From a virus (lineage: Duplodnaviria; Caudoviricetes), in the IMG/VR virus record IMGVR_UViG_3300034161_000021, positions 1 through 39,456 of that record: DNA of 39,456 bases, one strand, 5' to 3'. Positions 1 to 39,456 of this stretch are shown here, in pieces. The stretch's first letter is position 1. Each line of letters begins with the position of its first letter. The notes under the pieces were generated by a model that saw only the letters and a list, made by a program, of their open reading frames with translations, did no database searches and had not been told where the DNA came from. Both the position numbers and the translations under genes were made by a program.

Positions 1-155
1 GTAAGACGGCGCAATGGCGTGCTTGATCTCTGCCGGATCACCGGCTTTCCAGTCGCCCAGATCGACCTCTTTGAGCAAGCCGCGCAGGGTGGCGACAACC
101 GCCGTCACCGCGCCTTTCTGCCCACGGAAAGCCCCACGAAACACGGCATTGAAGG
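1..155. repeat. Terminal direct repeat, left copy (circular assembly overlap)
   Basis: 1-126 is identical to 39314-39439, and 139-155 is identical to 39440-39456. The right copy lacks 12 nt between two CCCACG repeats. Confidence 0.95.
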
Positions 156-390
156 CCGTGCCATCGGCCAGACCGAAGTGCTTCAACGACTCACGGCGCA
201 CGCCCTTGGTGACAAAGGACGCCTCCATTTTCTCCAGGCCCTGGGCCATCTCGATGGCACCGGCCATGCCGCCGGCTCGATACTCGTCGGTCTTAACCGT
301 CAGCTTGGGCAGGGTCAGGCTTGGTACGTCGCCGGCAAAGTTCACGCCGTCAACAAACAGGTTCGTGTTAAACAAAGTTTGAGGAATCAT
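1..390 (-). CDS. FII: Major tail tube protein (P2 FII-like), 5' part; continues across the circular junction to the stop at 39200
   Basis: ATG at 390 reads MIPQTLFNTNLFVDGVNFAGDVPSLTLPKLTVKTDEYRAGGMAGAIEMAQGLEKME..., a typical FII sequence directly downstream of the sheath. Absent from the ORF track because it runs off the window edge. Confidence 0.92.
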   Translation of the reverse strand, partial: MIPQTLFNTNLFVDGVNFAGDVPSLTLPKLTVKTDEYRAGGMAGAIEMAQGLEKMEASFVTKGVRRESLKHFGLADGTAFNAVFRGAFRGQKGAVTAVVATLRGLLKEVDLGDWKAGDPAEIKHAIAPSY

Positions 391-402
391 TGACTAGCCC
401 CC

Positions 403-1569
403 TTAGGCTGCTTCAAGTACTTCGGTCATCCACTGATCGGTGACTTCGAAAAGGAAATTCGGGTTTTCGGCCGGCGGCACGTCGGTAAAGCGAATGCGCC
501 AAAAGACTTTGCCCTCGGCGATTTGGCTGGCCGTGTTCAGCTCAGCGTCCGGGAACACTTCGAAGTTGATAATTGCGCCCTGGGCTTTCAGGTCACGCAT
601 GAACGCGTCCAGGCCGTTGGTCACATCACTGACGTAAGTCTTGGTGATCGAGCGGTCAACGGCCCACTTGTGACTGGCCTGCACCGCATCCATGAGAATG
701 AACAGCGTGCGAACGCGAGTGACGAATGCCCATTTCGGGTCGCTCGACAGCGTGCGGTTGCCCCACAGGCGATAGCCGTCGTCGCGGATGATCGTCGCGA
801 TATTGGCGTTATTCAGCAGGTTGGCCCGGCACGTCTCGTCGCCGTCCAGGTACTCGACAGCGCGGGTCGTGCCCGTGATGCCGGCGAACTCTTTGTTCGA
901 CGGCGAGGCCCAAAAGCCATATTCCGCATCGGTCCAGGCGAACAAGCCCGCCGCCCAGGCCGAACCCGGGGCATCGACCGTCTTGCTGGTGCCGGTGTCC
1001 CAGTACTGCACACCCGGATCAACCATGAACAGGTTGCGACTGCCGAAGTTTTCCGCGTAGGCCATGGCGGCCTCATCGGTGGTGCCCGGCCCGTCGATAA
1101 TGCCGATAGCCCGCAGATTCTGCGCCAGGCCATCGACCGCCGTGGCCACCGCTTGCTTGGCGGTATGGCCTGGGGCGATCAACAGCCGCGGCTGAGCGTT
1201 GAACAGGCTTTTACCATCGCGCAAGGCCTGTAGGCCGGTACGCTGACCCGAGGCCAGGACGCCGCCGATGATCGCCGAGGTTTGCAGCGCCTCGTCTTCA
1301 AGCTTGGCCACGCCGACGGCGACGATCACCGCCTTAGCCTTGCTGTAGATCGCCTGACAGGCCTTGGTGATCGCCGCGTCAGCGCCCCAGGCGGCAATGG
1401 CTTCGCGCTCGGTGGTGATCAATTTAAGTTCGCCAGCCTTTGCCGTGCCGCCGCCCAACAGGCCGGGGGTGAAGGTGCTGCACAGGCCGATGATCGAAGA
1501 CGACGGCAAGGAAATGGTGCGCGCGCCGGTCTTAACATCGGTGGTCGTAACGCCGTGAAAGAAACTCAT
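403..1569 (-). CDS. FI: Tail sheath protein (P2 FI-like)
   Basis: 388 aa; N-terminal FFHGVT, GFWASPSNK, GYRLWGNRT and C-terminal PPAENPNF motifs of contractile sheaths. Confidence 0.95.
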   Translation of the reverse strand: MSFFHGVTTTDVKTGARTISLPSSSIIGLCSTFTPGLLGGGTAKAGELKLITTEREAIAAWGADAAITKACQAIYSKAKAVIVAVGVAKLEDEALQTSAIIGGVLASGQRTGLQALRDGKSLFNAQPRLLIAPGHTAKQAVATAVDGLAQNLRAIGIIDGPGTTDEAAMAYAENFGSRNLFMVDPGVQYWDTGTSKTVDAPGSAWAAGLFAWTDAEYGFWASPSNKEFAGITGTTRAVEYLDGDETCRANLLNNANIATIIRDDGYRLWGNRTLSSDPKWAFVTRVRTLFILMDAVQASHKWAVDRSITKTYVSDVTNGLDAFMRDLKAQGAIINFEVFPDAELNTASQIAEGKVFWRIRFTDVPPAENPNFLFEVTDQWMTEVLEAA

Positions 1570-1590
1570 AAAGCTCGATCTCCAGAAACG

Positions 1591-1614
1591 AAAAAGCCCC
1601 GCATAAGCGAGGCT
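1591..1614 (-). terminator. Intrinsic terminator inside the late operon
   Basis: Minus strand AGCCTCGC-TTAT-GCGGGGCT followed by a T run. Confidence 0.6.
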
Positions 1615-1648
1615 GAGAGGGGTGTTCGTGTTACGCGTAACGGAATAG

Positions 1649-1675
1649 AAAACGCCCCGTCAGTGCGGGGCGTTT
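1649..1675 (-). terminator. Intrinsic terminator after the fibre assembly gene (possibly bidirectional)
   Basis: AAACGCCCC...GGGGCGTTT inverted repeat with A/T flanks, overlapping the stop at 1674. Confidence 0.65.
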
Positions 1676-2120
1676 ATTGGGGTGGGCCGGCCAACCAGGG
1701 CGGCGCCATCGGGCGGTGATCCGCCAGGGGAAACTCGGCGCCTTCCGGCCAGTTGCGCAACTGACGGCGATAGACTTGCAGTTCAGCGTATTGCTCAGCC
1801 GTGAGGGTGGTCGCAATAACTTCTTCCTGCTCATCGCGGTGGCGACTCACCACGCCGTCGGTCGCGGCAAGTTGAGCGTCCCGCCATGCCCGCTCAACTG
1901 CTGCGACATCTGCCGACGAAGGCGGTGGCGGATCAATCAGCACCGGATAACCATCAGGGCGCGCCGACATTTTTTTAGCGCTGATCGACAGCTCTTGGAG
2001 CAGCGACTGCCAATCACTCGCCGCCACCTCAACCACGTCGTCTGGCATATCAGAGCCGTGAACAGCCACTGTGTAAGCGCCGCAGGTTGAAGGACTAAAA
2101 AAAACTATATCGTTCATCAT
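1674..2120 (-). CDS. Tail fibre assembly chaperone
   Basis: FFSPST N-terminus, ERAWRDAQL and YRRQLRNWPE...FP...RP..PPWL; immediately downstream of the fibre gene. Confidence 0.85.
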   Translation of the reverse strand: MMNDIVFFSPSTCGAYTVAVHGSDMPDDVVEVAASDWQSLLQELSISAKKMSARPDGYPVLIDPPPPSSADVAAVERAWRDAQLAATDGVVSRHRDEQEEVIATTLTAEQYAELQVYRRQLRNWPEGAEFPLADHRPMAPPWLAGPPQ

Positions 2121-4090
2121 TAATACCCAATTGCTCGCCAGTATAGGGTCCAGTTTATCGCCCCTGCCCCGCTCTGATTCTGCAATAGAAGCGTGCAGCC
2201 CGCCTTATTCTGCGATCCCGACATAACGCAACTCATCAGCCCCAAAGATCCCACATGAACAGGGGTAATGTTCAGAAGCGCATTAGGAAAAGCCGTGGTA
2301 AAGCTCACATAAGCCTTACCACTGGCATCGGTTACCGCCACGCCCCACTGTTCGATGTAGCCAGATGGCAGTTTTTGAAAACCATTCGAGCCAAAGGAGC
2401 CGCTAAAGTCAGCGTTTTTACCAAGGCCAGCCGTGGACTCAACAACAGTCCATGTAGTCGAGCTCGTACCCACAAACTTGGCCGACTGGCCCGTCTTTAT
2501 CGCGTACGCTGTGCTAATCCCGCCAGACTGGTCCTGAATGGTTGTACCGGCGGGGGTAGTGACCGTCCCGCCTACCGAGGTAGCAAACAAGGTGAAGCCA
2601 GCGCTGCTGTTATTGATGCCTAGTGACAATGGCGGGGGTAGGTTGAGGGTGTACGAACCTGCCGAGCTAAACCAAAGAAGCGAACCTATATCAGTCGGCC
2701 CCAAGTCCCGGGAAGTGTTGATGGTTTGAAAGGAGCTGTATCCGTTCAATGCTCTTTGTACGAACTCGGTTGTTGCCAGCTTCTGGGTTTTGTCAAACAG
2801 CGGTGGCGTTGCCCAATCGGCGCCGGACAAGGATTTGGAATAGCGCAGCGCCGGACTGCCATGCAGGCGCCACACACCCGTCTCCTTAGTCAAGTAGGCC
2901 GTTTCACCCCACCGCAACGTGATGAACCCGTACTGCGCGCCCTCGGGGCTGATCTTGTCAGTGCCGGCGGCAGCAATGGTCTTATCGACGCCGGACGGGT
3001 TATGCAGAACGATTGTCGCGCCAGCGGGAACATCCGCCAGCAGAGGCAGTGTCGCCGCTTGAGCGCCCCCCAAAGACAGGGAAATGAACTGCCCCACGTC
3101 GGCGGCCACCAACGTGATTGCGCCACCCCCTATCGAACGACCACCCGAAAAGCTGCCCAGTGCCCGCTGAGTGAACTCAGTAGTCGCGAGCACCTTGCTG
3201 CTGTCGAACTGGGGCGCCGTAGGGGCCGTTGGCAAGCCCAACAAGGCCGGGGAATTGATCGGCGCAAACCCTTGGGTAACGTTCTGGAACGTCAGCGCAG
3301 TGGTGCCCAGGACAATCACCCCATCCGTGACCAACTGCCAACGGCTGTCGGCTAACGCGCTGCCCTGCTCAACCGATACCAGCAGCGCCGACGTCACTTC
3401 GGCATTGGTGTCGGCATCTTCCGCGCGCTTCCACACGCCCGCCGCCGCGACGTACAGACCGTTGTCCTTGGCCACGGCCTGGTTTTTCACCAGCACCCGA
3501 TCACCGGCCGCCAACGCAATGCCGTCGATGGTCAACAGGCCCGCCAGCGCGATGTTGGCCGTGGTGGCCACGCGCACCGACTGCTTGTTGTCGAGCTTAT
3601 AAAGCTCTTCCGTGATCCGCTGATCAACGTACTCGCGAGTCGCCAGCACCACGGCCGGGTCAATCTTGAGCGTGATGCTGCCGGTGCTGGACACAATGAA
3701 GTTCATCCGCACCACTTGCGTGCGGCCGGAGCCCTGCGACAGCATCGGCTTGAAGCTCGGCGCGCAGTTGGCCACCGCCACCAGATCGCCGTCCGCGTCG
3801 TACAGACCGATTTCGCGAATCCAGCGCCCGCCCTCGTCAGCCGGGATAATTTGCTCGGCGATGATCACCGCCGCGTTGACCGGATCAACCCGGAGCTGAT
3901 TCAGCGGCCGGCGGCGCCATTCATTGATCAGCCGTGTTTGCGATTCGCTCGGAATCGGATCGGTGTCATTGGCATCACCTACCCCCATTTCGGTGATCTT
4001 CCAGGGAAGACCGAGCGCGTCGGCGTTCGCCTGCTTGGCTCTCCCCACTTTCGTGAGGAGCGCGAAAAACTGAGAATTCACATCAACCAT
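2120..4090 (-). CDS. Tail fibre protein (P2 gpH-like)
   Basis: N-terminal baseplate anchor (LLTKVGRAK, IREIGLYDADGDLVAVAN, KIDPAVVLATREYVD), SVRVATTANI...GDRVLVKNQ domain, two ATTEF repeats, C-terminal GFQKLPSGYIEQWG. Confidence 0.92.
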   Translation of the reverse strand: MVDVNSQFFALLTKVGRAKQANADALGLPWKITEMGVGDANDTDPIPSESQTRLINEWRRRPLNQLRVDPVNAAVIIAEQIIPADEGGRWIREIGLYDADGDLVAVANCAPSFKPMLSQGSGRTQVVRMNFIVSSTGSITLKIDPAVVLATREYVDQRITEELYKLDNKQSVRVATTANIALAGLLTIDGIALAAGDRVLVKNQAVAKDNGLYVAAAGVWKRAEDADTNAEVTSALLVSVEQGSALADSRWQLVTDGVIVLGTTALTFQNVTQGFAPINSPALLGLPTAPTAPQFDSSKVLATTEFTQRALGSFSGGRSIGGGAITLVAADVGQFISLSLGGAQAATLPLLADVPAGATIVLHNPSGVDKTIAAAGTDKISPEGAQYGFITLRWGETAYLTKETGVWRLHGSPALRYSKSLSGADWATPPLFDKTQKLATTEFVQRALNGYSSFQTINTSRDLGPTDIGSLLWFSSAGSYTLNLPPPLSLGINNSSAGFTLFATSVGGTVTTPAGTTIQDQSGGISTAYAIKTGQSAKFVGTSSTTWTVVESTAGLGKNADFSGSFGSNGFQKLPSGYIEQWGVAVTDASGKAYVSFTTAFPNALLNITPVHVGSLGLMSCVMSGSQNKAGCTLLLQNQSGAGAINWTLYWRAIGY

Positions 4091-4691
4091 GGTAAATATC
4101 CAGAGTGTCTATTGAGTGTTCGCGCCCGACCACGCCGATGGTCCCGGTGACCTCAATGTCACGCATGACCGGCGGGTAAACGTCGATTACATCGCCTTCG
4201 TACAGGGCGACACTGATATTCAAAGCGCCTTGAGTTTCGAGGCTGATTGCGAGCCCCGTCAGGTGCCGGGTGACGGGCTTGGCGTCGTCGATCAGGCGTT
4301 CTAACTCCTGATACATTTCCTCAGTGATACCGGTATCCAGAACGCCGACCTTCAGCGCGAAGGTTCCCGGGATGCCTTCCGGGACCATCTTGAACCACTC
4401 GATAATCTCGATCAGGTAGCCCAGCGGCTCGACCACGCGGCGCAGCGCACCGACGGTGCCCTTGTGCTTGTGGATGTAGTAAGAAGCCTTGATTGCGGCG
4501 CGCTTGGTCGCCTCGGTCCAACGGTAGTCCCAGCGATCCACCGACCAGGCCCACGCCAGATGCGGCAGCAAATGCACCGGGCAGGTCTCGGCGTTGTAGA
4601 GGTCGCGCAGCGGGACAATCGTTTTCTCGAAAAACGTCGCCTCCATGGCCCGTTCCAGTTGCGTGCTGTTGATCGGCAGTAGGCTTTTCAT
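4083..4691 (-). CDS. I: Tail protein I (P2 gpI-like)
   Basis: SLLPINST, CPVHLLPHLAWAWSVDRWD and HKHKGT motifs. Confidence 0.93.
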   Translation of the reverse strand: MKSLLPINSTQLERAMEATFFEKTIVPLRDLYNAETCPVHLLPHLAWAWSVDRWDYRWTEATKRAAIKASYYIHKHKGTVGALRRVVEPLGYLIEIIEWFKMVPEGIPGTFALKVGVLDTGITEEMYQELERLIDDAKPVTRHLTGLAISLETQGALNISVALYEGDVIDVYPPVMRDIEVTGTIGVVGREHSIDTLDIYHG

Positions 4692-4692
4692 A

Positions 4693-5574
4693 TCAGCCCG
4701 CCAGCGTCACGGTGTAGCCCGTACAGTACGCCGCCTGCGCCTTGGTCGGGGCCAGGTCCTGCCATCCGACCAGCTCAACCCGGGACACACCGGCAACGTG
4801 CAACTGCGCGTCGACACCAGACCGTGCCACCTCAACGCCCAGCCGTTTGCGCGGATTGATCCAGGCCGCCAATCGACTTTTAGCCTCGACCAAGCTGGCA
4901 TCCGCTTCGGGGCCAGCGCTGGCCATGTGCAGAATCGCGTTGATTTGGTAGCGGATTACCTGGGCGCTCTGCACCGTCACCCGATCACACACCGGACGCA
5001 CGTCGTCGTCATTCAGCGCGGAGGCCACCGTGGCCAGCAACTCCGGTGGCGCCACCCCTTCCCCGTCCAAACCCAGCACCGTGACCGTAACGTAACAAGG
5101 CGCGGGACTTTCGGCCGTGGCGTCCGCCACCAACCCCGAGGCGTTGCGCGCGTGCAGGATGTAGCTGTTACGTGGGCCGGCCGTAGTCAGCCCCTCATAG
5201 GCCAACTGGATGCGCTCACGAAACGGGTCGTGATCTTCTTTGATCTCGGGCACCGGCGGAACAACCGTTAAATCCTCAGCCTGAATAACCAGGCGCTTTA
5301 GATTGACGTTGGCCCCCAAGTGATCGAGGTCGCTGCCGATGGCATGCGCCAGCAACACCGCTTTACCGGCGTCATTGACCCGGGCGCGGTTGCCGACCTT
5401 GATGTAAGCGGCGACCTCCAGCACCTTAACTACCGGATCACTTTCAAGCGCGGCGGTCCAGTTACTGCCCATGTACCCGCGAAAAACCCCCAGCCCCTCC
5501 TGATAAGCCTCTTCGAAGTCCAGCGGCTCCAACACAGTCGGTGCCGGCAGCGACGACAGATCCACAATACTCAT
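4693..5574 (-). CDS. J: Baseplate J-like protein
   Basis: Likely start MSIVDLSSLPAP (ATG 5574 overlaps the gpW stop); LESDP, GSDLDHLGA, TTAGP and VRPVCDRVTV motifs. Confidence 0.93.
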   Translation of the reverse strand: MSIVDLSSLPAPTVLEPLDFEEAYQEGLGVFRGYMGSNWTAALESDPVVKVLEVAAYIKVGNRARVNDAGKAVLLAHAIGSDLDHLGANVNLKRLVIQAEDLTVVPPVPEIKEDHDPFRERIQLAYEGLTTAGPRNSYILHARNASGLVADATAESPAPCYVTVTVLGLDGEGVAPPELLATVASALNDDDVRPVCDRVTVQSAQVIRYQINAILHMASAGPEADASLVEAKSRLAAWINPRKRLGVEVARSGVDAQLHVAGVSRVELVGWQDLAPTKAQAAYCTGYTVTLAG

Positions 5575-5897
5575 ACGGCTACCTCCAACGTGACGCCGTC
5601 GCCCAGGTACTCGCCGACAATCTTCAGGTTGATTTTCCCGCCAATAACGGAAATGACGCGCACCTGATCCAGTTTCAAACGCGGCTCCCAGCGCCCCAGG
5701 GCGCGAGCGACTTCCGCCTGTACGGCGCTTTTCCAACCCTCGTTAACGGGCAAGTCAACAAACCGCCGCAACTTGCTGCCGTACTCCATCCGATGCCGCC
5801 GGCTGCCCAAGGGCGTACCCAGAATGTCTGGAACGGATTGGCGCAAGTGCTTGATGCCGGAAATGGGCAGGCCGGTGTGGCGGTCCATTCCGATCAT
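5571..5897 (-). CDS. W: Baseplate wedge protein (P2 gpW/gp25 family)
   Basis: GMDRHTG...HLRQSVPDILGTPLGSRRHRMEYGS...ALGRWEPRL. Confidence 0.93.
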   Translation of the reverse strand: MIGMDRHTGLPISGIKHLRQSVPDILGTPLGSRRHRMEYGSKLRRFVDLPVNEGWKSAVQAEVARALGRWEPRLKLDQVRVISVIGGKINLKIVGEYLGDGVTLEVAV

Positions 5898-5902
5898 CTA
5901 AA

Positions 5903-6130
5903 TCACTCCTTCAGCGGCTTAAAGTCAGCGTAAGCTTTCAGGAACGACACCGCTTCGGCATCGGCTGGCGAAACCTCGGCCAGCCCCTTGGCCACCGACA
6001 GCGTGCGGTTGCTCGGGGGGATGATCAGGGTTCGCGACGTGTAGACCAGATCGCTAAACTTCAGCAGCTCCGGCACCGGAACAGGGGCCGCCAGTTCATC
6101 AGCGGCGGACGGCGTGGTGGTCTTGGCCAT
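5903..6130 (-). CDS. Small hypothetical protein between gpV and gpW
   Basis: ATG at 6130 (MAKTTTP...) preceded by a GGAGA RBS; co-oriented within the tail operon. Confidence 0.65.
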   Translation of the reverse strand: MAKTTTPSAADELAAPVPVPELLKFSDLVYTSRTLIIPPSNRTLSVAKGLAEVSPADAEAVSFLKAYADFKPLKE

Positions 6131-6148
6131 GTCTTTTCTCCATGCATG

Positions 6149-6171
6149 AAAAAGCCCGCACTCGGCGGGCT
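6149..6171 (-). terminator. Intrinsic terminator after gpV
   Basis: Minus strand AGCCCGC-CGAGT-GCGGGCT followed by a T run. Confidence 0.65.
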
Positions 6172-6185
6172 GTCGTGGGTTGAAA

Positions 6186-6752
6186 TTAATGCGTGTGGTG
6201 GTTGCTGTTACCACCGGCGTCGATGATCGCGCCGGCGCTGGTGATGCCCTTCGTAACGTGTAACGCGCCGTCGATCAGCACCGCCGCTTTCAGGGTGATG
6301 TTCCCGGCCGTTACCGTAACGGCGCTGGCAGTTACGACCGCCTCCGTGCTGCCAACTTTGATGGTCACCGTGCCGCTCGGTAGGTTGATGGTGTAGCTCT
6401 TGGCCTGCCAGTCGTAGATCAGCGAGCCGCCATCATCAAACCGCCAGGTTTCCACATGGTCGCGGTTATCCGGCGGCGGGCCGGCATTGCCGTACAAACC
6501 CGGGATAAACGTACCTTGTGCCAAATCACCGCTGGCACTGATCAAGGTCCCCTGCTCGTACATGGATGGCGCCCGCCAGTGCCTGGCCTTACCGGCGGCG
6601 ATGCTGTGCCAACGCACCCAGGCGCTGACCCAGTCACCACCATCCGACACCCGACACACTGGCGGGGAGGCCGCCAGATCGACCGCCACCACATAACAAT
6701 CCTTGACCACCCCCGCCAACATACGATCGTGCTGGGCGCTTGCGTAGCTCAC
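6186..6752 (-). CDS. V: Baseplate spike protein (P2 gpV-like)
   Basis: [20 protein letters not shown], and C-terminal His cluster NHHTH (metal-binding spike tip). Confidence 0.92.
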
Positions 6753-7267
6753 ACATCCTCCGACGGGACAAAGTCCTCTTTGACGTCTTCGTTAAAGCCG
6801 AACAACAACGAGCCCGGCGGCTCATCAGGCCAAGGCCACTCAAGCTCACCCAGTTCGAAAGTCTGTATCCATTGAACGGACCACATAACGAACTGCTCAA
6901 GCTCTTTGGTCGGGGCTTCAGGCTGAGCATGGATATGCTCAGGCGGGCCAAGGATAAAATCCAAGTCCCAATATTGACCATGCAGCACGACCGCCATCTG
7001 AGACGCGAGAATGGCCGCCTGTAGTGACGCTTTGTCGCGCGTGGCATCGACCAGAATGCAGGACTGAAACCGGCCAATCACGACCGTTTTACCGTCCCCC
7101 GGGTTCTCCCCCAGCGTCATGTCCGTCAGGCCGAACAGCAACGCCGGCACCCGGACTTTCGCGTCCAGCTCAGGGAAGGCCTCGACGTGCAAAACCTTGG
7201 GCATCCGCGCCTTGATCGTGCGGGTGATTGCTTCATGTAATGTCGTCAGCTCGCTCATCGTTCGCAC
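6749..7267 (-). CDS. Putative tail terminator/completion protein
   Basis: 172 aa between the head-tail joining gene and gpV, with overlapping start/stop codons; function inferred from position. Confidence 0.55.
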
Positions 7268-7927: not shown

Positions 7928-7954
7928 GGCCAATTTCTCCTATGCAGAAACAAC

Positions 7955-31644: not shown

Positions 31645-31673
31645 TTGCTTCGAAGGGGACCGTCCACTAAACT
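31645..31673 (+). promoter_or_regulatory. Sigma70 promoter antisense to the rep leader
   Basis: TTGCTT (31645-31650), 17-nt spacer, TAAACT (31668-31673). Confidence 0.65.
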
Positions 31674-31679
31674 CTGACC

Positions 31680-31756: not shown

Positions 31757-31811
31757 CTAAGCCCTTGTAAATCCTGAAATTCTTGTCTCTCGGCAGATGC
31801 CGGACGCCAAA

Positions 31812-31996: not shown

Positions 31997-32557
31997 TTAC
32001 GGCGGCGCCGGCCGCTGACTGGCTGACCATACCGCCCGCACATACCCCTGACAGGCCGCCAATGCGGTCAATCCTTCGTCGCCGTCTCCGGTGATGCCGA
32101 TAATTCGTTGAGCATGCGCGGGGTCAAGTTCGGCGCGCGCGGCTCCATGAACCACGCCGCCGGCGCTGGCAGTGGCTGGCACTCCGTCAGCACCGGCGCC
32201 GAAGGGGCCGGCGAGTAGGACTGACAACCGGACATCAGCAGTGGCAAGGCGATCAGACAGGCGTTGCTGAGTTTTCTTTGCATCGGACAGTTCTCGGTAG
32301 TGGGTTTCATCGTTGGTCTTCAAGCGGCCCTCCAGGGTGGCGCGCTTGCCCTGTTCGCTGGCCAGCGCGGCCGTCACCGCCTCGGCGTGGGCTTTTCCTT
32401 CAGTGGCTGCCTGCGCGACCTTCTCGGCCAGCGTCTGGCCATAACGCCAGTCCTGCACCACCCACGCGCCACCAGCGGCGGCACCCGCTACCAGCAGCAG
32501 TACCAGGGCGACGGCCCAGGGGCGAATAGGCGCCGGAATCAGATCGAGGATGGACAT
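31997..32557 (-). CDS. Rz: Rz-like inner-membrane spanin
   Basis: Likely start MSILDL (32557); N-terminal TM helix, WVVQDWRYG, coiled coil, RAELDPAHAQRIIGITGDGD...LAACQGY. Confidence 0.88.
   Translation of the reverse strand: MSILDLIPAPIRPWAVALVLLLVAGAAAGGAWVVQDWRYGQTLAEKVAQAATEGKAHAEAVTAALASEQGKRATLEGRLKTNDETHYRELSDAKKTQQRLSDRLATADVRLSVLLAGPFGAGADGVPATASAGGVVHGAARAELDPAHAQRIIGITGDGDEGLTALAACQGYVRAVWSASQRPAPP
32068..32283 (-). CDS. Rz1: Rz1-like outer-membrane lipoprotein spanin embedded in Rz
   Basis: MQRKLSNACLIALPLLMSG-C lipobox followed by a Pro-rich mature part, in another frame inside Rz. Confidence 0.82.
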   Translation of the reverse strand: MQRKLSNACLIALPLLMSGCQSYSPAPSAPVLTECQPLPAPAAWFMEPRAPNLTPRMLNELSASPETATKD

Positions 32558-33198
32558 AGCACCACCTTGGCCGTGGCCCACAGAGCGCGGCGGTCGGCTT
32601 GGCCGTTGGTGCCGCCATTGATAACCCGCGTGATGCGGTCGAACAGGCCCGCGTCGGCCAGCTCGTTCAGGCCGCGATCCCACCAGTACCAGGCCGCCGA
32701 CAACGCCGCGTACTCCGGCCGCTCCAGCAGCTCGGGCTGTTCCAGCAACGGCAGGCCCAGGGCCTTGCCGCACAGTCGGTAGGTGTCCCGGCCGGTGATG
32801 CCGATTCCGCCCCGGGCGCGATAGCGGTAGCCGTCCCCCGAGGACTCAGGCCCGTTACCGTTACGGCCGGCGTACACGCGGTTGGCCATCTTTTCCGAGT
32901 TGCGCAAGTAACCCTTGGCGTCCTCGACCTCGGCCGGATCAACCACACCGTTGCGGTTCAGGTCAAAGCCATACTTGAACAACTGCGCGACCCGCTCGGC
33001 GTCCTTGTAGTAGAGGCTTTCCGACAACGCCATGAGCTGGCCCGACTCATGACCCACCTGGGCGAGAAAAGCCGCCTGCCGCACCGGTGACGTGATGTCG
33101 AAGCGCGCCATAGCTTGATTGAGGGCTGACACAAAAACGCCCGCGACTGGGCGGGCGTTCGGGAGGATTCGCAGCAACTGCTGCTGAGTGATGTTCAT
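32539..33198 (-). CDS. Endolysin, glycoside hydrolase family 19
   Basis: AAFLAQVGHESG, ANRVY, GDGYRYRARG, AALSAAWYW and ITRVINGG motifs. Confidence 0.93.
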   Translation of the reverse strand: MNITQQQLLRILPNARPVAGVFVSALNQAMARFDITSPVRQAAFLAQVGHESGQLMALSESLYYKDAERVAQLFKYGFDLNRNGVVDPAEVEDAKGYLRNSEKMANRVYAGRNGNGPESSGDGYRYRARGGIGITGRDTYRLCGKALGLPLLEQPELLERPEYAALSAAWYWWDRGLNELADAGLFDRITRVINGGTNGQADRRALWATAKVVLCPSSI

Positions 33199-33246: not shown

Positions 33247-34293
33247 TTACAGCTTTTCGACGCTCACAACCTTGAGCGGCCCGTCTTTCTTCTTTTTCTT
33301 GCCTTTAGATTTTCCTTTCTTACCGGCATTGCACTCGACTGTCGTGGACCAGCCGGATTGGGTAAACACCTGCTCGACCGATTCCGCCAGATACTCGCCA
33401 TCGAGCCCGACCTTGAAGCCCTGGGCGTTGATTGGCCGCTCTGCAAAAATGTCCGTGCGGCCGGGCATCTCAAGACGAACATCAGCGGTCGAGCGGTTGA
33501 ACGCCGCTAAACGCGCCTTAGCGGCTGCCTCGGCGGCGGTCTTGTTCGGATAGATATGTCTATCGGTATGCACCGCCGGCAAGCCATCCGGGGCGTCATC
33601 GTTGTTCACCGTGACAACCGCCAGCTTGCCGTCCTTCTTGTTCTGGTGCTTGGTCGCCACGGCCTTGTGCGAGTTGCGATCCCCGAGACTAAACTGCCAG
33701 CGACTAAGGTCGCTCTTCGTCAGGGTGATCGCGCCGAATGCCTTGCCGCTGGCGGTTTGGCCACCTTGACGCGGCATCACCAACAGCTTGCCGTCGGCGA
33801 CCTTGGCCGTGCAGTCGTATTGCTTGGCCAGGCGCGTGATGAAATTAAAATCGGACTCGTTGAGCTGATCCACCCGGGCGACTTTCGTTGATACCGGACA
33901 GACCGCCTGCCAGCCATTGCGCGCGGCGATGTCGGCCACGATCTTCGACAGCGGCACGTCCTCCCAGCTTCCGCTACGGATGGTCTTGCCACTGCCACGC
34001 ATGTCGCTGGCCTTGCCCTTGATCACAATCGTGTCCGGCGGACCCGACACTTCGACCGAGTCCACCGCGTAACGCCCCAGGCGCGTCAGGGACGTTTCGG
34101 CATAGCCCAGGTAGATCTCGATAGAACTGCCGCGCGCAGGCAACTGCACCTCGCCGTCACGATCATCAATGCGCAACTCAAACTCGTCGGAGTCCATGCC
34201 GGGCTTGTCTGAGGTGCGCAGCAACAACAGCCGGTCGTTGATCTTGGCCGTAATATCGGCGCCGTTGGCAACGATTCGAAACGTCGGAGTCAT
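33247..34293 (-). CDS. D: Late control/baseplate hub protein (P2 gpD-like)
   Basis: Likely start MTPTFRIVANGADIT (34293); SDEFELRIDDRDG and DQLNESDFNFITRLA. Confidence 0.92.
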   Translation of the reverse strand: MTPTFRIVANGADITAKINDRLLLLRTSDKPGMDSDEFELRIDDRDGEVQLPARGSSIEIYLGYAETSLTRLGRYAVDSVEVSGPPDTIVIKGKASDMRGSGKTIRSGSWEDVPLSKIVADIAARNGWQAVCPVSTKVARVDQLNESDFNFITRLAKQYDCTAKVADGKLLVMPRQGGQTASGKAFGAITLTKSDLSRWQFSLGDRNSHKAVATKHQNKKDGKLAVVTVNNDDAPDGLPAVHTDRHIYPNKTAAEAAAKARLAAFNRSTADVRLEMPGRTDIFAERPINAQGFKVGLDGEYLAESVEQVFTQSGWSTTVECNAGKKGKSKGKKKKKDGPLKVVSVEKL

Positions 34294-34304
34294 GGATTTT
34301 GTCC

Positions 34305-34329
34305 AAAAAGAAACCCGCACAAGGCGGGT
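34305..34329 (-). terminator. Terminator between gpX and gpD
   Basis: Minus strand ACCCGC-CTTGT-GCGGGT-TTCTTTTT. Confidence 0.6.
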
Positions 34330-34390
34330 CAAAAAACAAAGTGTCGTTACGCGTAACGCAACGGACTGCCGGCGGCGGTGTTGCCCGAGG

Positions 34391-34597
34391 TTAATCCCAC
34401 AAGCTAATCCCTTCATCGGTCGGGCGGGGCAGATCCGGCAGCACGATTACCACGCCCGTGCGGTAGGGCTGGGGTTCGTCCGCCAGCCCCTGATTGGCAT
34501 CGAGCACCGCCTCGGTGCTGCCGTTCAGATGGCCATAAACGTTATGGCAAATGACATCGAGCATGTCCCCGTCAGACGTTCTGCATGTCGTCGCCAT
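34391..34597 (-). CDS. X: Tail protein X (P2 gpX, LysM-like)
   Basis: GDMLDVICHNVYG...VLDANQGLA...IVLPD...LWD. Confidence 0.9.
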   Translation of the reverse strand: MATTCRTSDGDMLDVICHNVYGHLNGSTEAVLDANQGLADEPQPYRTGVVIVLPDLPRPTDEGISLWD

Positions 34598-35417
34598 AGC
34601 GTGCAAACTCCAGAGTGAACCCTTGTTTACGGGGAATGCCGCCGTGCAACAGCGCGCCCTGCTCCTCGCTGATGGTCTTCAGGCACCACGTCCCAATCAC
34701 CTCGCCATAGCCCGTGGTCAGGGTTAGCGGCTGAAGCCTGGCGCCGATGGTGCGCAACGTGTCGAGTTGCTTGAGGCCACCCTTGAAGCCCGGGTAGATC
34801 GTCCCCTTGAGCGTGAGCTTTTCCTCCCCCATCCCAATCGCCTGCTGCGCCGGGCGGCGCGACAGGCGTTCCTGGGAAGCCCAGCGGAATTCGGTCGAGC
34901 GGCTCAGCTCGTCGAAGGCCGCCGTGTCCAGATTGAAGTAATAGGGCTGAATCTTCGGGTCGCGGGGCTGGATGATCAGCAAGTGCGGGAACGGCTTCAC
35001 CGCTTCCGGCGCCGGCGTGGCATCCACAGCAAAGGAACTGGTGGGCACGATGTTGGCCAACGATGGGCTGACCTTGCCGGCGATATTATTAATCGCCGTC
35101 GCCGCCTTGCCCGCCTGCTCCTTCAGTGTGCCCAGCCGTTCCTGCACTTCGGTGGCAGCCCGAGTCGCACGACCGTACACCGCCACCACCTGGCCAACCT
35201 TGGCTTGAGCCGCATCCACACCGCGCATTACCCGCTGTAGCTTGGCGCCGATAGCCGGCCCCACAAACGGGATGTTTTCCAGCTCGGACGCGGCACCCGT
35301 CAACTCGCGGATCGCCCCGTTGACCGGCCCCAGCATGCCGTCCGCACTGCGCCGGCCGGCCTCCCCGGCTTCCACCAGATACTTGAGGCCCGATTGCATC
35401 TGTTCCATGTAAGCCAT
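34572..35417 (-). CDS. U: Tail protein U (P2 gpU-like) with N-terminal extension
   Basis: C-terminal FRWASQERL...PAQQAIG...LTLKGTIYP...GYGEVIGTW...FTLEF. Confidence 0.88.
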   Translation of the reverse strand: MAYMEQMQSGLKYLVEAGEAGRRSADGMLGPVNGAIRELTGAASELENIPFVGPAIGAKLQRVMRGVDAAQAKVGQVVAVYGRATRAATEVQERLGTLKEQAGKAATAINNIAGKVSPSLANIVPTSSFAVDATPAPEAVKPFPHLLIIQPRDPKIQPYYFNLDTAAFDELSRSTEFRWASQERLSRRPAQQAIGMGEEKLTLKGTIYPGFKGGLKQLDTLRTIGARLQPLTLTTGYGEVIGTWCLKTISEEQGALLHGGIPRKQGFTLEFARYGDDMQNV

Positions 35418-35426
35418 TAGGCCTCC

Positions 35427-38400
35427 TTAAACGTGGGGTTCGTCGTACAGCTTGGCCGCGTTCTGTTTCGACGCGTCCGCCATCATCCGCTGCATGTGCG
35501 GCATCAGATCCTGGGCCAAGCGTTGCGGGTCTTTGACATCCCCTTGCACCGTGACCGGCATGTTCAGCGAGTACTGAAACTGCTGATCCACTTTGGTCGG
35601 TGCCGGCTTCTCCGGCTCCTTGGGCTGGATCGCCACGGCCGCCGGCTTGGTCGGTGCCGACACCGCCAGCGAGCGCGCGACATCGCCCAGCACTGGCCCC
35701 TGCGGGGCCGGCGCCGAGGCCATCAGTAACGCGCCCGTGCCGTTTGCCCCACTGAGCGACTGGCCCATGGCGGCCAAGCTGGGAATAGCTGGACCCGGAC
35801 GTGGCGCCATCAGCAACGGCGTTACCGGCGGGGCAGGCTTTTCATCCTCACCACCAAACCACGACTTGCCCAGCGCGCCGCCCAACGCCTCACCGCCCTT
35901 ACTGCCCAGGTAAGCACCGATCAAGCCGCCGACAGCAGTGCCAATAATCGGCACCACCGAGCCAATGGCCGCCCCCGCCGCAGCACCGGCCATGGTGCCC
36001 GCCAGATTACCGGCGGCCGAGCCGTAGCCCTCGGCCTTTTCATCCTTGGTCTTGGCGGTCTCGTAGGTTTCGAACGCCATGGCGCCGGCATCCATCAGCG
36101 ATCCGCCGGGGATCATCTTGGCGGCTTTGCCGATCTTGCCGACCGCTTGCACAACCCCGCCCAGCTTCGACATGGCCCCGGCTGGAACCGGCACCGCAGG
36201 GATCGGCGGACGTGGAACCGAGCCCGGCCGTGGTAACGGTGGACGCGGCCCTGGGATTGACGGCGGCACCGGCGGACGCGGCAAGGGAGCCGGGCCCGAC
36301 GGCCTTGGCAGTGGCGACGGTGGTCGCACTGCCGGCACTGGCGGACGCGCCCCAGGGAGCGGCGACCGGGGCACCGGTGGTCGCAACGAACTACCCGCCC
36401 GAGACGGTGCTGGCCGACGACGCGAAGAATTGCGCCTTGCACCGCGACCACGCCGACGCGTTTCACCAGGGCCTCCAGCGGCGCCACCCATGGCCCCCGC
36501 GTTGACGACAAACACCTTTTTGACGCCGTCACCATCCGCACCGGCCTCATTGCCTCCGCCGGCCCCCGTGACGGTCTCCTGAGCAAGCGAAACCACCTTG
36601 AGGCCGGTCGCGACCAGATCGAGTTTGGCGGGTTTCTTGTCGCCCTTGTCGTCCGCCTTATCGTCGGCGCCGCCATCGGCAGATTTACCCTTGAAGGCCG
36701 CCACCGCCTTTAGCCCGGTCTCCACCAGCGATAACGCTTTACCGGCCTTGCCCTTGGGCTCTGAAGCCTTGCCGTCGCCGCTACCGTCCTCGGAGTTGGT
36801 CACAAAGACCTTTTGTACCGCGCCGGCCTTGCCGCCGCCCAGCGAGCCGCGCGCCAGATTTAATAACCCTTTACCCATCTTGAACGAACTAAAAAGGCCC
36901 GTCAGCGTGACCAACCCACCACCGACCAATGCGATCCCCGTCACCACCCCGGGCGCGCTGTCAGACATCGAGGTAATGCTTTTGGTGACCTTGGTCAGCG
37001 CATCGGCCACGGTATCCGTGACTGGGCGCAGAGCGTCCCCCACGCTGCGCATGGCGTCATCCATCGACTGAGCCATTTCGGCCCACTTCTGCGACGACGA
37101 CTCGCGCCGCTCACTGAGGTTTTTGTCGAGGATGCCCGTCGCATCGCGCGAGTCGTTTTTAAGCTGGGCGTACAGCGCCTTGTTCTGCATGAACGCCGTA
37201 AGCGCGGCCTTAACCTGCATGTCGGCGAACAGGTCGCCGGTGCGCAATGACTCCTCCAGAGAGGTCATCATGGCCTTGGCTTTCTCCGGGTCCGCCTCCT
37301 TGCTGATTTTCGACGTCGCTTCAGCCATCGCCGCCGCGCGTTTCGGATCGGTGGCCTGAATGTACTTCTGAGCCAACGCCATGCTGGTTTCAAGCGTGGA
37401 CATGCCGTTTTGCAACCCGGTCTGCATCGACCCCTTGTAGTCGATGCCGGCCTTTTTGTAGGCCTGGACGGTGTCGGTCGAGCCGATTTTGCCCATCCAG
37501 TTTTTGAGGTTGTTGGCCGCCTCGTCCGAGCTGCCGGCCGTCTTCATCTGCACTTGCAGCATCGCGCCCAACTGAGTCACCGCATCCATGCCGGTGATCC
37601 CATTCTTGCCCATTTCCGCCAACAGCTCAGGGAACCACTTGGCCATGTCGGACGCTTCAAAGCTGCCCGCCTGCCCTTGATAAGCAATCGCTTCAAGCGC
37701 CTGCTGCATCTGTTTGGCGTCGGTGATCTTGGCGTTTTGCCCCAGGGCGTTGATCATCTTCGCCGTATCAGCACCGTTCGACCCCTGCCCCACGACAAAC
37801 TTGGCTGCGACAGGTGCATATTCCAGGGCCTTGCTCAACTCCATACCGGCGCCAACCAACTGGTTGACCACGTCGGCCACGTCGTTGCGCGCCATGCCGG
37901 TGTCTCGCGAGGTATCAATGATCTTGCGCGACATTTCCTTTTCTTGTGGCTTGTTGGCAATGCCGGCCTTGATCGCGATGTCCCGAACAATCGCCCCGAA
38001 GTCCGCGCTGACCTTCGTTGGCACCGCCAGAGCCCCCACGCCGACGACAGCGGCGCCGACTGCTTTTGCCATGCCGGCCTTACCGGCATCCAACTGCTGA
38101 TGCCCCCGGGCTTTAAGCTCGGATTTGTTGGCTGCCTGCCCCATGGACCGATAGGCCTTCTCCAGCCGGCCGACTTCAACGCCCTGCTTCTTCAAGCTGT
38201 CGAGGTTGGAATTCAACCGACCCAGCAGCTTGGACGCACCAGCAGAGCCGCTGTCGTGGGCTTTTTTCCATTCATCGCGCAAGCGAATGGTGTCGCCGAT
38301 AGCACGCTGCAGAACACGCGCCTTGCCCCCTTCCGCCTCAAGGCGCTTGATGCGCCCCGTTACATCTTTGAACGCAGCACCGACCGTCGAACTGACGGCG

Positions 38401-38438
38401 GCGCCGATCACCAGCCCGAGGGCGAGTTTGTTCGCCAT
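35427..38438 (-). CDS. Tail tape measure protein
   Basis: 1003 aa, Ala/Gly-rich; GSFEASDMAKWFP, AANNL and GAAAGAAIGSVVP motifs; between the chaperone and gpU. Confidence 0.93.
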   Translation of the reverse strand: MANKLALGLVIGAAVSSTVGAAFKDVTGRIKRLEAEGGKARVLQRAIGDTIRLRDEWKKAHDSGSAGASKLLGRLNSNLDSLKKQGVEVGRLEKAYRSMGQAANKSELKARGHQQLDAGKAGMAKAVGAAVVGVGALAVPTKVSADFGAIVRDIAIKAGIANKPQEKEMSRKIIDTSRDTGMARNDVADVVNQLVGAGMELSKALEYAPVAAKFVVGQGSNGADTAKMINALGQNAKITDAKQMQQALEAIAYQGQAGSFEASDMAKWFPELLAEMGKNGITGMDAVTQLGAMLQVQMKTAGSSDEAANNLKNWMGKIGSTDTVQAYKKAGIDYKGSMQTGLQNGMSTLETSMALAQKYIQATDPKRAAAMAEATSKISKEADPEKAKAMMTSLEESLRTGDLFADMQVKAALTAFMQNKALYAQLKNDSRDATGILDKNLSERRESSSQKWAEMAQSMDDAMRSVGDALRPVTDTVADALTKVTKSITSMSDSAPGVVTGIALVGGGLVTLTGLFSSFKMGKGLLNLARGSLGGGKAGAVQKVFVTNSEDGSGDGKASEPKGKAGKALSLVETGLKAVAAFKGKSADGGADDKADDKGDKKPAKLDLVATGLKVVSLAQETVTGAGGGNEAGADGDGVKKVFVVNAGAMGGAAGGPGETRRRGRGARRNSSRRRPAPSRAGSSLRPPVPRSPLPGARPPVPAVRPPSPLPRPSGPAPLPRPPVPPSIPGPRPPLPRPGSVPRPPIPAVPVPAGAMSKLGGVVQAVGKIGKAAKMIPGGSLMDAGAMAFETYETAKTKDEKAEGYGSAAGNLAGTMAGAAAGAAIGSVVPIIGTAVGGLIGAYLGSKGGEALGGALGKSWFGGEDEKPAPPVTPLLMAPRPGPAIPSLAAMGQSLSGANGTGALLMASAPAPQGPVLGDVARSLAVSAPTKPAAVAIQPKEPEKPAPTKVDQQFQYSLNMPVTVQGDVKDPQRLAQDLMPHMQRMMADASKQNAAKLYDEPHV

Positions 38439-38476
38439 GTCATGGCCCCCATTTGCACTGTCTTACCGAAGGCGGC

Positions 38477-38572
38477 TCAATCCGTGAGCCACCACACCAT
38501 CTCAGCAAACGGCATCGACTGAATCTCAGCGGCGGAAAATCCGGTTTCCGCCGACAGACGTTTCGCGGCCAT
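38477..38572 (-). CDS. GpE'-like tail chaperone extension
   Basis: (GFDPSVIK)MAAKRLSAETGFSAAEIQSMPFAEMVWWLTD, a P2 GpE'-type motif, in the +1 frame overlapping the chaperone stop. Confidence 0.7.
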   Translation of the reverse strand: MAAKRLSAETGFSAAEIQSMPFAEMVWWLTD

Positions 38573-38588
38573 TTTTATGACGCTGGGA

Positions 38589-39185
38589 TCAAACCCCGTC
38601 GTCTTGGTCCATACGAAAATAGCCGGCCTGCAAGCGGTTAAAGTCCACCAGTTTCAGGCCCTCCAAATCCGCCAGAGGCGCACCGGCCAGCGCGGAAAAC
38701 AACACCAGCTCGCGCTGTTCGTCATCACCACCCGCCTCACGATTCGCCGCCCGTACATCGCCCACGGTAGGGGAACGCAAGGCCAACTTATCGACCGATA
38801 CGCCGTTGATTTCGCTCGGGCTGGAAAACGTGACCAGGGCCTGATCGGTGGTGATCGACAACCACGACGGCGTTGAGGCCGAATAATCGGTATTGGGCAC
38901 CAGATACGAATAGGCCGCTTGAACACGGCGATAGTCCGCCAGCTTCAGGCCTTCCAGATCCTTAACACCGACATCGGCCAAGCCGGCGAACAACATCAGC
39001 TCGCGCTGCTCGTCGTCCCCGTTAGAGGCGCGATCCGCCGCCCGCACCTCGCGCACGGCCGGAGCACGCAGGGTCAACGTCTCGACCTCGACGCCGTTGG
39101 CTTTGCTTGGACGTGTAAGGGTCACGACGGCGGCGAGCACGCCGAGCGACAGCCAGGCCGGCAGTGCATTATTAGTTGCTTTCAT
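38589..39185 (-). CDS. Tail assembly chaperone (Mu gp41/P2 gpE-like), two tandem domains
   Basis: Two copies of NGV.V..L.LR.P.V..VRAA...GDDEQREL.LF..LA.....DLEGLKL.D..R.QA.Y. Confidence 0.88.
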   Translation of the reverse strand: MKATNNALPAWLSLGVLAAVVTLTRPSKANGVEVETLTLRAPAVREVRAADRASNGDDEQRELMLFAGLADVGVKDLEGLKLADYRRVQAAYSYLVPNTDYSASTPSWLSITTDQALVTFSSPSEINGVSVDKLALRSPTVGDVRAANREAGGDDEQRELVLFSALAGAPLADLEGLKLVDFNRLQAGYFRMDQDDGV

Positions 39186-39199
39186 GTGGATCTATTCCT

Positions 39200-39456
39200 T
39201 TAGAGGCCGAGCGCGGCGCGAATGTCAGCGAGTTGGTCTTTACCGTCGATCACTTGAACGCCGGCCACCATGTCGATTTCGTACATGAGGCGGCCGTCGA
39301 TTTCGAGCTTGTAGTAAGACGGCGCAATGGCGTGCTTGATCTCTGCCGGATCACCGGCTTTCCAGTCGCCCAGATCGACCTCTTTGAGCAAGCCGCGCAG
39401 GGTGGCGACAACCGCCGTCACCGCGCCTTTCTGCCCACGAAACACGGCATTGAAGG
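39200..39456 (-). CDS. FII: Major tail tube protein, 3' part
   Basis: ...KEVDLGDWKAGD...YYKLEIDG...EID...IDGKDQLADIRAALGL; joins 1-390 on the circle. Confidence 0.92.
   Translation of the reverse strand, partial: FNAVFRGQKGAVTAVVATLRGLLKEVDLGDWKAGDPAEIKHAIAPSYYKLEIDGRLMYEIDMVAGVQVIDGKDQLADIRAALGL
39314..39456. repeat. Terminal direct repeat, right copy
   Basis: Matches 1-155 except for a 12-nt deletion. Confidence 0.95.

What the first reader, a model, noticed from the sequence alone, without database searches (positions are those of the whole stretch)
1..39456. Complete circular phage-plasmid: lambda head, P2-type tail and a full plasmid backbone
Seen: terminal overlap, a complete virion and lysis gene set, no flanking host genes, ParA plus RHH with iterons, a Rep-like gene with an antisense unit, a klcB/korC-like pair and a tyrosine recombinase. 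Known: N15-type phage-plasmids are linear and encode a protelomerase, while P1-type are much larger. Inference: this is a small circular cos-packaging myovirus maintained as a plasmid in a Pseudomonas-like host, possibly a poorly described phage-plasmid group.
Basis: partly seen in the sequence, partly recalled or inferred. Interest (0 to 1): 0.85.

Follow-up and report, generated by a model that had tools for sequence, protein, structure and literature searches.

The report
Unnamed small Pseudomonas phage-plasmid family
This is the whole genome of a 39-kb Pseudomonas-type virus that likely lives in its host as a circular plasmid rather than in the chromosome, and it shares a fixed block of control genes with an unnamed set of similar elements that differ in their heads, tails and plasmid-copying genes.

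Summary
Observation largely confirmed. The ends overlap, and the 39,313-bp circle restores the tail-tube gene. It carries a lambda-type head, a PS17/R-pyocin-type contractile tail, lysis genes, CI/cro, ParA+RHH, KlcB and a Rep gene with a conserved antisense-RNA unit.

Three corrections. The 'iterons' follow the ParA/RHH allele, not Rep, so they are likely partition/operator sites. The tyrosine recombinase belongs to a family that integrative prophages carry beside a separate integrase. The lambda-head/P2-tail combination is common in chromosomal Pseudomonas prophages.

Close relatives are closed plasmids (pHN2, pPL-38ph) or unit-length contigs. A distant Vibrio relative is published as a plasmid-borne, inducible phage. 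Several relatives are already catalogued as untyped phage-plasmid singletons (PMC12977533), and this scan noted such a family before on another genome (e1-3420402).

What looks undescribed: an 8-gene early module unites 18 elements across five genera, while head, tail, Rep and Par differ, and Rep is an unmodelled family under predicted antisense control. The plasmid state of this exact record is inferred, not shown.

The parts
1..155 (.). Terminal overlap, left copy (intact)
39314..39456 (.). Terminal overlap, right copy (12-nt deletion, probably an assembly slip); circle = 39,313 bp
1..7267 (-). Contractile tail block: tube (runs across the junction to 39200), sheath 403-1569, fibre chaperone 1674-2120, fibre 2120-4090, gpI, gpJ, gpW, gpV, tail completion
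   Evidence: sheath 73% to PS17 FI and 72% to an R-pyocin locus
7233..14354 (-). Lambda-type head and packaging: head closure, cement, ClpP-capsid fusion 7995-10076, portal, adaptor, gpA-type TerL 11762-13798, Nu1-type TerS 13761-14354
14347..14418 (.). Conserved non-coding block upstream of terS; candidate cos region (inferred)
   Evidence: found in 7 of 8 genomes compared, not in Solano
14491..16186 (-). Minor tail (gpZ-like) gene, orphan 15388-15741, lambda-family holin 15863-16186
16405..16863 (-). Transcriptional regulator (phrog_536); early-module gene
16902..18191 (-). Tyrosine recombinase with intact catalytic motifs, of the family that sits after the replication genes in Pseudomonas prophages; candidate multimer resolvase (inferred)
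18691..19107 (-). Probable late-gene activator (weak PA0613-family and sigma-like HTH hits, below cut-off)
19813..20406 (-). 197-aa family marker after cro; winged-helix model, weak replisome-organizer likeness; candidate lytic initiator (inferred)
20403..21455 (.). Immunity switch: cro-like 20403-20726 (-) and CI, HTH + S24 peptidase, 20751-21455 (+)
22082..22543 (+). LuxR-like HTH gene; early-module gene
22536..23652 (+). Partition operon: promoter 22565-22592, ParA 22641-23294, RHH 23362-23652, with GCTAA clusters at 22536, 22603 and 23297
23931..26911 (-). Variable accessory ORFs, mostly without family
27545..27862 (-). KorC-like HTH gene (ATG at 27781) with promoter 27862-27834 overlapped by two palindromic operators at 27811-27826 and 27838-27853
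   Evidence: operator pair found only in the 4 genomes that carry this gene
27921..29447 (-). KlcB-family protein
29697..29822 (.). Two GCTAA clusters (likely RHH-binding sites, not iterons); a further degenerate cluster lies at 18262-18295
30030..30413 (.). Conserved non-coding region downstream of rep: three TTAAGT-like repeats in an AT-richer stretch (30344-30413) and a conserved block (30030-30300); candidate origin (inferred)
30616..31620 (-). Rep initiator, 334 aa, winged-helix model; unmodelled family, distantly IncFII-RepA-like
31645..31758 (+). Predicted counter-transcribed RNA: promoter 31645-31673, about 80-nt two-hairpin RNA with variable loop, intrinsic terminator 31719-31758; lies opposite the rep leader, whose Shine-Dalgarno sits in a hairpin
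31997..33198 (-). Rz 31997-32557, embedded Rz1 lipoprotein 32068-32283, GH19 endolysin 32539-33198
33247..39185 (-). gpD, gpX, gpU, tape measure 35427-38438, tail chaperone with two TAC_7 domains

Best explanation
This is a complete temperate myovirus genome of Pseudomonas type that is likely kept as a circular low-copy plasmid, predicted to be copied by its own Rep protein under antisense-RNA control and segregated by ParA plus a ribbon-helix-helix protein. Steps: (1) In lysogeny CI would repress the cro arm (inferred from HTH+S24; RecA/SOS induction from established lambdoid biology). (2) Rep would act at an origin just downstream of its gene. An ~80-nt counter-transcript would pair with the rep leader and keep the Shine-Dalgarno hairpin shut; its variable loop would set incompatibility (promoter, terminator and covariation shown in sequence; action inferred). 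(3) RHH would bind the GCTAA arrays as centromere and operator (co-variation shown; binding inferred). (4) The tyrosine recombinase is not the att integrase and may resolve multimers (first half well supported; second half a guess, about 0.4). (5) On induction the 197-aa gene after cro may start lytic replication (about 0.5). Lambda-type terminase would cut unit genomes at a cos site, for a head joined to a PS17/R-pyocin-type tail. The element belongs to a wider family with a fixed early module and exchangeable head, tail, Rep and Par modules.
For: - Closed circular plasmids pHN2 (a dimer of about 41 kb) and pPL-38ph share 7 of 7 head, 9 of 9 tail and 8 of 8 early genes in the same order.
- Marker ORF 19813: 7 of 7 PLSDB hits are 38-48 kb plasmids or the pHN2 dimer, and all 7 carry virion genes. 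3 of 401 Pseudomonas genomes hit, all on their own 35.7-40.5 kb contigs, one with a 95-nt end repeat. 12 of 12 NCBI-sourced clusters among 115 have longest contigs of 29.7-48.0 kb.
- Vibrio relative PE002A is listed as 'is_plasmid', active, phage-to-host ratio 27.5 (PMC11630473 Table S1). Plasmid pVPGX2 and phage record VPHZ6 are 97.7% identical over 35.8 kb.
- Antisense promoter plus terminator in 13 of 14 rep leaders. 7 of 22 pairs have two-sided changes, 0 of 500 shuffles as high.
- GCTAA clusters present where ParA is 89-97% identical but Rep only 48-50% (pHN2, L010, L012), and absent in L008 with 95% Rep and another ParA.
- Recombinase homologues sit beside a separate integrase in Solano, VW-6S, G083, G276, G266 and G234.
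Against: - No host, read or copy-number data for this record. The source run was not found (5-9% of words shared) and IMG/VR calls it linear.
- A circular contig would also come from an excised prophage or virion DNA.
- Rep has no Pfam/NCBIfam hit and only generic winged-helix fold matches. One Rep homologue cluster (48%) has a 126-kb contig of unknown nature.
- The recombinase is catalytically intact, and P-P and prophage copies are interleaved in a quick tree (2 changes). A 79% copy lies on a contig with another integrase and no early module (G177:C60).
- The experimental support is for Vibrio relatives only 28-43% identical in the shared genes.
- The Shine-Dalgarno switch is weak: unpaired 0.12-0.36 free vs 0.01-0.07 blocked in 9 of 11 leaders, no change in 2, no shuffle control.
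- Relatives were found with Rep or the marker, so module co-occurrence is partly ascertained.
Confidence: 0.85

Rival explanations
1. Dual-mode element: usually a plasmid, but the tyrosine recombinase also integrates it at a host site, as reported for P88 and phiC725A (PMC7969092 passages).
For: Intact catalytic motifs and an integrase-length protein; the only recombinase in the genome; P-P copies are kin to prophage copies.
Against: Prophage homologues lie mid-genome after the replication genes, with another integrase at the end. No early-module copy was found inside a large contig in 401 genomes. No tRNA in the window.
Confidence: 0.09
2. An ordinary integrative prophage captured in its excised circular form, with plasmid-like genes as passengers.
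For: The whole virion module is 62-85% identical to a chromosomal prophage (G234:C1); circularity alone cannot separate the two states.
Against: No homologue of Solano/VW-6S DnaC, DnaB, O or P and no second integrase. Rep, antisense unit and par operon are intact and conserved. The closest relatives are closed plasmids.
Confidence: 0.03
3. A plasmid that no longer makes infectious particles (decayed P-P or tailocin-like producer).
For: A relative (CP124676) has a transposon inside its sheath gene; P1-like P-Ps are known to decay into plasmids (PMC10879196 passages).
Against: All head, tail and lysis ORFs are full length and open.
Confidence: 0.03

Closest known systems
pHN2 (NZ_CP085886) and pPL-38ph (NZ_CP062157), Pseudomonas plasmids
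   Same: Same gene order, virion, early module and Rep family; approximate one-way wGRR 0.55 and 0.45. Listed as phage-plasmids in one-member communities without a type (PMC12977533 Table S1).
   Different: DNA only 74%/59% covered at 76%/73% identity; Rep 48%/43%; pPL-38ph has another ParA/RHH; both carry HicAB, which the window lacks.
Vibrio PE002A (PQ189289), pVPGX2 and VPHZ6; P. aeruginosa pPAC1.3b; Edwardsiella pEI-2083-2; Delftia pHQS1; phage PARCL1pr; Halomonas CP080628
   Same: 6-8 of 8 early-module genes, ParA, 36-48 kb, rep placed after the tail genes. PE002A is a plasmid and inducible.
   Different: Other heads (separate S49 protease plus capsid, or HK97), siphovirus tails in pHQS1/PARCL1pr, and at least two other Rep types. 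wGRR to the window 0.05-0.18.
VP882 and phiHAP-1 (Hapunavirus), linear plasmid prophages
   Same: 38-39 kb, lambda-like packaging with P2-like contractile tail, ParA.
   Different: Protelomerase and large RepA absent from the window; 0 of 8 early genes shared; tail proteins mostly 24-35%.
Rp1/Rp2 tailocin-related Pseudomonas prophages, PS17 and R-pyocin (PMC4684702)
   Same: Tail 45-72% to an R-pyocin locus for most genes, and the same split lysis layout; whole virion 62-85% to prophage G234:C1.
   Different: The prophages integrate, replicate with DnaB/P-type genes and lack the early module; pyocins have no head.
IncFII (R1) replicon
   Same: rep preceded by an antisense RNA (CopA in R1, PMC5883639 passages); language-model look-alikes are IncFII RepA clusters (0.95-0.96).
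   Different: No PF02387 hit in the window; 1 of 69 distant homologues hits it, below cut-off; no DnaA box; the leader peptide start is not conserved.
P1 phage-plasmid
   Same: Circular plasmid prophage with partition, a tyrosine recombinase and possibly a separate lytic initiator (the last recalled, RepL).
   Different: P1 is 94.8 kb (PMC12282955 table) with headful packaging; here 39 kb, lambda-type terminase, antisense control, RHH partition.

Membership tests
Phage-plasmid (Pfeifer/Rocha definition) | Complete virion, packaging and lysis genes | tested here: met
Phage-plasmid (Pfeifer/Rocha definition) | Plasmid-type initiator and partition genes | tested here: met
   Rep hits 169 plasmid records; ParA + RHH
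Phage-plasmid (Pfeifer/Rocha definition) | Extrachromosomal lysogeny and particle production of this element | not testable with these tools
   shown only for relatives
N15/VP882-type linear phage-plasmids | Protelomerase and large RepA | tested here: not met
   VP882 proteins vs window: best E 0.56
tyPPing well-defined types (P1, N15, AB, SSU5 group, cp32) | Type signature proteins | not tested
   tyPPing not run; 8 of 8 relatives found in its table have no type (a ninth, CP124676, and PARCL1pr were not found, and the file was cut when stored)
IncFII replicon | RepA of PF02387 | tested here: not met
   only a language-model lead
IncFII replicon | Antisense RNA opposite the rep leader | tested here: met
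   predicted from sequence; no Rfam match
IncFII replicon | Leader peptide coupled to rep | tested here: inconclusive
   11-codon GTG ORF in 8 of 14 leaders (7 by script, G001 read by eye), start codon lost in pPL-38ph, PARCL1pr, pHQS1
IncFII replicon | DnaA box in a downstream origin | tested here: not met
   0 matches to 4 exact patterns in the window
Iteron-controlled replicon | Direct repeats that co-vary with Rep | tested here: not met
   GCTAA clusters co-vary with ParA/RHH; short TTAAGT repeats downstream of rep remain possible Rep sites
Type Ib partition system | Short Walker-type ParA, RHH partner, repeats flanking the operon | tested here: met
   binding untested
Integrative lambdoid prophage | Terminal att integrase and O/P or DnaC/DnaB replication genes | tested here: not met
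   (six Solano/VW-6S queries only)
IncP kil-kor genes | KlcB homology | tested here: met
IncP kil-kor genes | KorC homology | tested here: inconclusive
   29% over 41 aa, pairwise E 3e-4
Phage replisome organizer (ORF 19813) | N-terminal winged helix plus DnaD-like C-terminus, gene after cro | tested here: inconclusive
   atlas 0.93 with 145 of 256 features; BFVD E 8e-3; no PHROG/Pfam hit

The most novel reading that the evidence does not exclude
A cross-genus family of small circular phage-plasmids (Pseudomonas, Delftia, Halomonas, Edwardsiella, Vibrio) is defined neither by virion nor by replicon but by a lambdoid early module with its own lytic initiator and a repurposed prophage 'second integrase' acting as a Cre-like resolvase. 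It swaps myovirus and siphovirus virions with integrated prophages and swaps Rep/Par cassettes with plasmids. It is missed as a group because gene-content clustering scatters its members as singletons, and its main Rep is an unmodelled, antisense-controlled initiator family.
Probability: 0.35. Interest if true: 0.7.

Novelty: new variant of a known kind. Interest (0 to 1): 0.47.

Why it matters
Phage-plasmids outside the enterobacteria are mostly unvalidated singletons (PMC12977533 passages). A marker gene that pulls such singletons into one family gives a testable Pseudomonas model, with culturable carriers. It also offers a small replicon that MOB-suite leaves untyped in its carriers, and a handle on the mid-genome tyrosine recombinase family found in 89 of 401 Pseudomonas genomes, whose role I could not establish. 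Members in P. aeruginosa already carry transposons and mercury-resistance genes, so the family may move cargo. The lifestyle itself is known, which caps the surprise.

Tried and rejected
- Iteron reading rejected.
- Linear N15/VP882 type rejected.
- Strict IncFII membership rejected.
- Fold searches: Rep gave no PDB match at E<=0.001 and only winged-helix Z<=6.4. The marker gave none in PDB. The two families are unrelated by hhalign. phmmer of Rep vs PDB gave nothing.
- Rfam: 3 sub-threshold chance hits in 14000-33300.
- PADLOC: 1 weak hit among 20 accessory ORFs, ignored.
- The 9-bp palindrome at 25998-26022 as a recombinase site: found in no other genome compared.
- The GCTAA cluster before the recombinase is not seen in pHN2.
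- Sequencing runs: no RNA holder listed; 5 runs with small shares. Laying 4 of them showed only relatives' contigs, so the junction could not be tested.
- The recombinase tree is the quick tree only; six 'integrative' rows (L044, L045, L049-L052) were labelled without checking context.
- Literature: no paper for pPL-38ph, PARCL1pr or VPHZ6. One search returned only SPARCL1. One search listed 6 papers naming pVPGX2, pEI-2083-2 or pHQS1 once or twice (listing only, not read). Searches showed no description of the group.
- The supplement of PMC7969092 was unreadable, that of PMC9600943 had no hit, and PMC12977533 Table S1 was cut when stored. These, and subscription papers, may bear on novelty.
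- The search of earlier findings by sequence gave nothing.


Full report
1. Observation. The window is a single IMG/VR virus record classed 'linear'. Bases 1-155 recur at 39314-39456 with a 12-nt deletion in the end copy. Closing the circle at 39313/1 restores the tail-tube ORF, and the start copy matches the motif length in 7 of 7 relatives. Scans of 70 ORFs give Nu1/gpA terminase, lambda portal, a ClpP-capsid fusion, a full contractile tail, lambda holin, GH19 endolysin and Rz, with an Rz1 lipobox visible in the sequence. CI (HTH + S24) lies at 20751-21455. ParA, RHH, KlcB and a tyrosine recombinase are present. The KorC likeness is weak, though a palindromic operator pair over its promoter occurs in exactly the 4 genomes that carry the gene.

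2. Relatives. No near-identical phage or plasmid is held. Rep finds closed plasmids pHN2 (82 kb, a dimer), pPL-38ph, pHQS1, pEI-2083-2 and a Halomonas plasmid, plus Aeromonas RepA plasmids, circular phage PARCL1pr, five IMG/VR contigs and a 38,981-bp isolate contig with a 95-nt end repeat. The 197-aa ORF after cro is a sharper marker. 7 of 7 plasmid hits are phage-sized elements with virion genes. 3 of 401 Pseudomonas genomes hit, all on stand-alone 35.7-40.5 kb contigs. Among 115 protein clusters, 4 have a contig over 50 kb and none over 77 kb; the 12 NCBI-sourced ones lie at 29.7-48.0 kb. Short-read contigs are short anyway, so only the isolate rows carry weight. Of 29 sequences compared, 18 have 6-8 of the 8 early genes and 11 have 0-1, among them VP882, phiHAP-1, KS14, Solano, VW-6S and three chromosomal prophages. 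Head, tail, Rep and Par vary within the 18: HK97 siphovirus in pHQS1 and PARCL1pr; another Rep in G078:C27 and pPAC1.3b, and a third in PE002A. Conversely the whole virion module is 62-85% identical to an integrated prophage that has DnaB and other integrases but no early module except the recombinase. The tail is of the PS17/R-pyocin kind, as described for Rp1/Rp2-related prophages (PMC4684702, passages).

3. Lifestyle evidence. For this record it is inferred. For the family: closed plasmids in isolate genomes; PE002A recorded as 'is_plasmid', active, phage-to-host ratio 27.5 (PMC11630473, supplement rows; main-text passages); and plasmid pVPGX2 97.7% identical over 35.8 kb to phage record VPHZ6 from water. 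These Vibrio members share only 28-43% identity with the window in the marker and recombinase. The source sequencing run was not found.

4. Replicon. Rep has no Pfam or NCBIfam hit. It folds with a winged helix and belongs to a large unmodelled family (842 representatives). A language model places it beside IncFII RepA clusters (0.95-0.96; the first cluster has PF02387 in 11% of members), but only 1 of 69 homologues scanned (of the best 150) touches PF02387, below cut-off. The rep leader is far more conserved than Rep. An antisense promoter and terminator occur in 13 of 14 leaders. The RNA folds at z -3.6. On 10 sequences, 7 of 22 pairs change on both sides, with A-U to G-U changes that fit the antisense strand (relatedness and a structure taken from the window inflate this). 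Rfam has no match. How the RNA acts is open. The Shine-Dalgarno lies in a hairpin that closes further when the target is blocked in 9 of 11 leaders, and a tap-like 11-codon leader exists in only 8 of 14. R1's CopA/tap system is the analogy (PMC5883639, passages). A conserved non-coding stretch downstream of rep is the candidate origin; no DnaA box was found.

5. The repeats. Six GCTAA clusters (0.03 expected) flank parA and lie upstream of the klcB arm and of the recombinase. Of 11 sequences checked, the same clusters occur in pHN2, L010 and L012 (ParA 89-97%, Rep 48-50%). They are absent from L008 (Rep 95%, other ParA), L011, L015, pPL-38ph and pEI-2083-2. pHQS1 and PARCL1pr have one cluster of a different repeat (five of these are partial loci). 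They are therefore likely RHH sites, not iterons.

6. The recombinase. Homologues occur in 89 of 401 Pseudomonas genomes, nearly all at 40-49%. In Solano and VW-6S the gene follows the replication genes while a separate integrase lies elsewhere. G083, G276, G266 and G234 have another integrase 10-14 kb away. The window has neither that integrase nor O/P/DnaC/DnaB homologues. A quick tree interleaves plasmid and prophage copies. Multimer resolution, like P1 Cre (PMC7969092 passage), is my best guess; no site was found, and the pHN2 dimer, if real, argues against efficient resolution.

7. Lytic replication. ORF 19813 sits where lambdoid initiators sit, models as a winged helix plus a small helical domain, and resembles replisome organizers only weakly. 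I give about even odds for a lytic initiator; otherwise derepressed Rep would serve both states.

8. Known or new. In PMC12977533 Table S1 (supplement rows; passages), pPL-38ph, pHN2, pHQS1 and pEI-2083-2 are phage-plasmids in one-member communities (within the cut file). AP022265, the Halomonas plasmid and pPAC1.3b carry their own community numbers, and pVPGX2 is in the loose VP882 community. None is typed, though vConTACT2 links pHN2 to pPL-38ph and pPAC1.3b to several singletons. My searches found no description of the group; the library lacks most subscription papers. Verdict: a real, intact, probable phage-plasmid; a new variant of a known kind; interest 0.47.

Noticed in passing
L079 (NZ_CP080628) 25015-28420: The Halomonas member carries a reverse transcriptase and a four-helix-bundle gene beside its tail genes, which looks like a diversity-generating retroelement.
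   Followed up: no
G177:C19 end and G177:C60: Probably one integrated prophage split at terS: virion 54-78% to the window, recombinase 79% and nested in the phage-plasmid clade, but another integrase and no early module; suggests module exchange.
   Followed up: partly
L006 (pHN2): The 81,985-bp record is a head-to-tail dimer of a ~41-kb unit; real multimer or assembly artefact.
   Followed up: no
L080 (CP124676) 25562-32962: P. aeruginosa member with a mercury-resistance Tn3 transposon inside the sheath gene and a second copy elsewhere; likely a decaying phage-plasmid.
   Followed up: no
window 38589-39185: Tail assembly chaperone has two tandem TAC_7 domains; in most relatives only about half of it aligns.
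   Followed up: no
L014 (AhyVDH1) and one search hits: Aeromonas myophages AhyVDH1, Ahp2, 3, 32, 59.1 and Asp37 carry a 29-35% Rep homologue (after gpD in AhyVDH1) and may be unrecognised phage-plasmids of another lineage.
   Followed up: partly
Many 30-100 kb P. aeruginosa plasmids carry a 30-34% homologue of this Rep annotated as hypothetical.
   Followed up: no
window 30030-30300: Highly conserved, hairpin-rich non-coding block downstream of the candidate origin; could be a primase (ssi-type) signal (idea recalled, untested).
   Followed up: partly
G073:C24 (L076-L077): 35.7-kb contig with the full early module but no virion or Rep gene matching the window; a further module combination.
   Followed up: partly
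window 25998-26022: Perfect 9-bp inverted repeat with 7-bp spacer, not found in the other genomes compared.
   Followed up: yes
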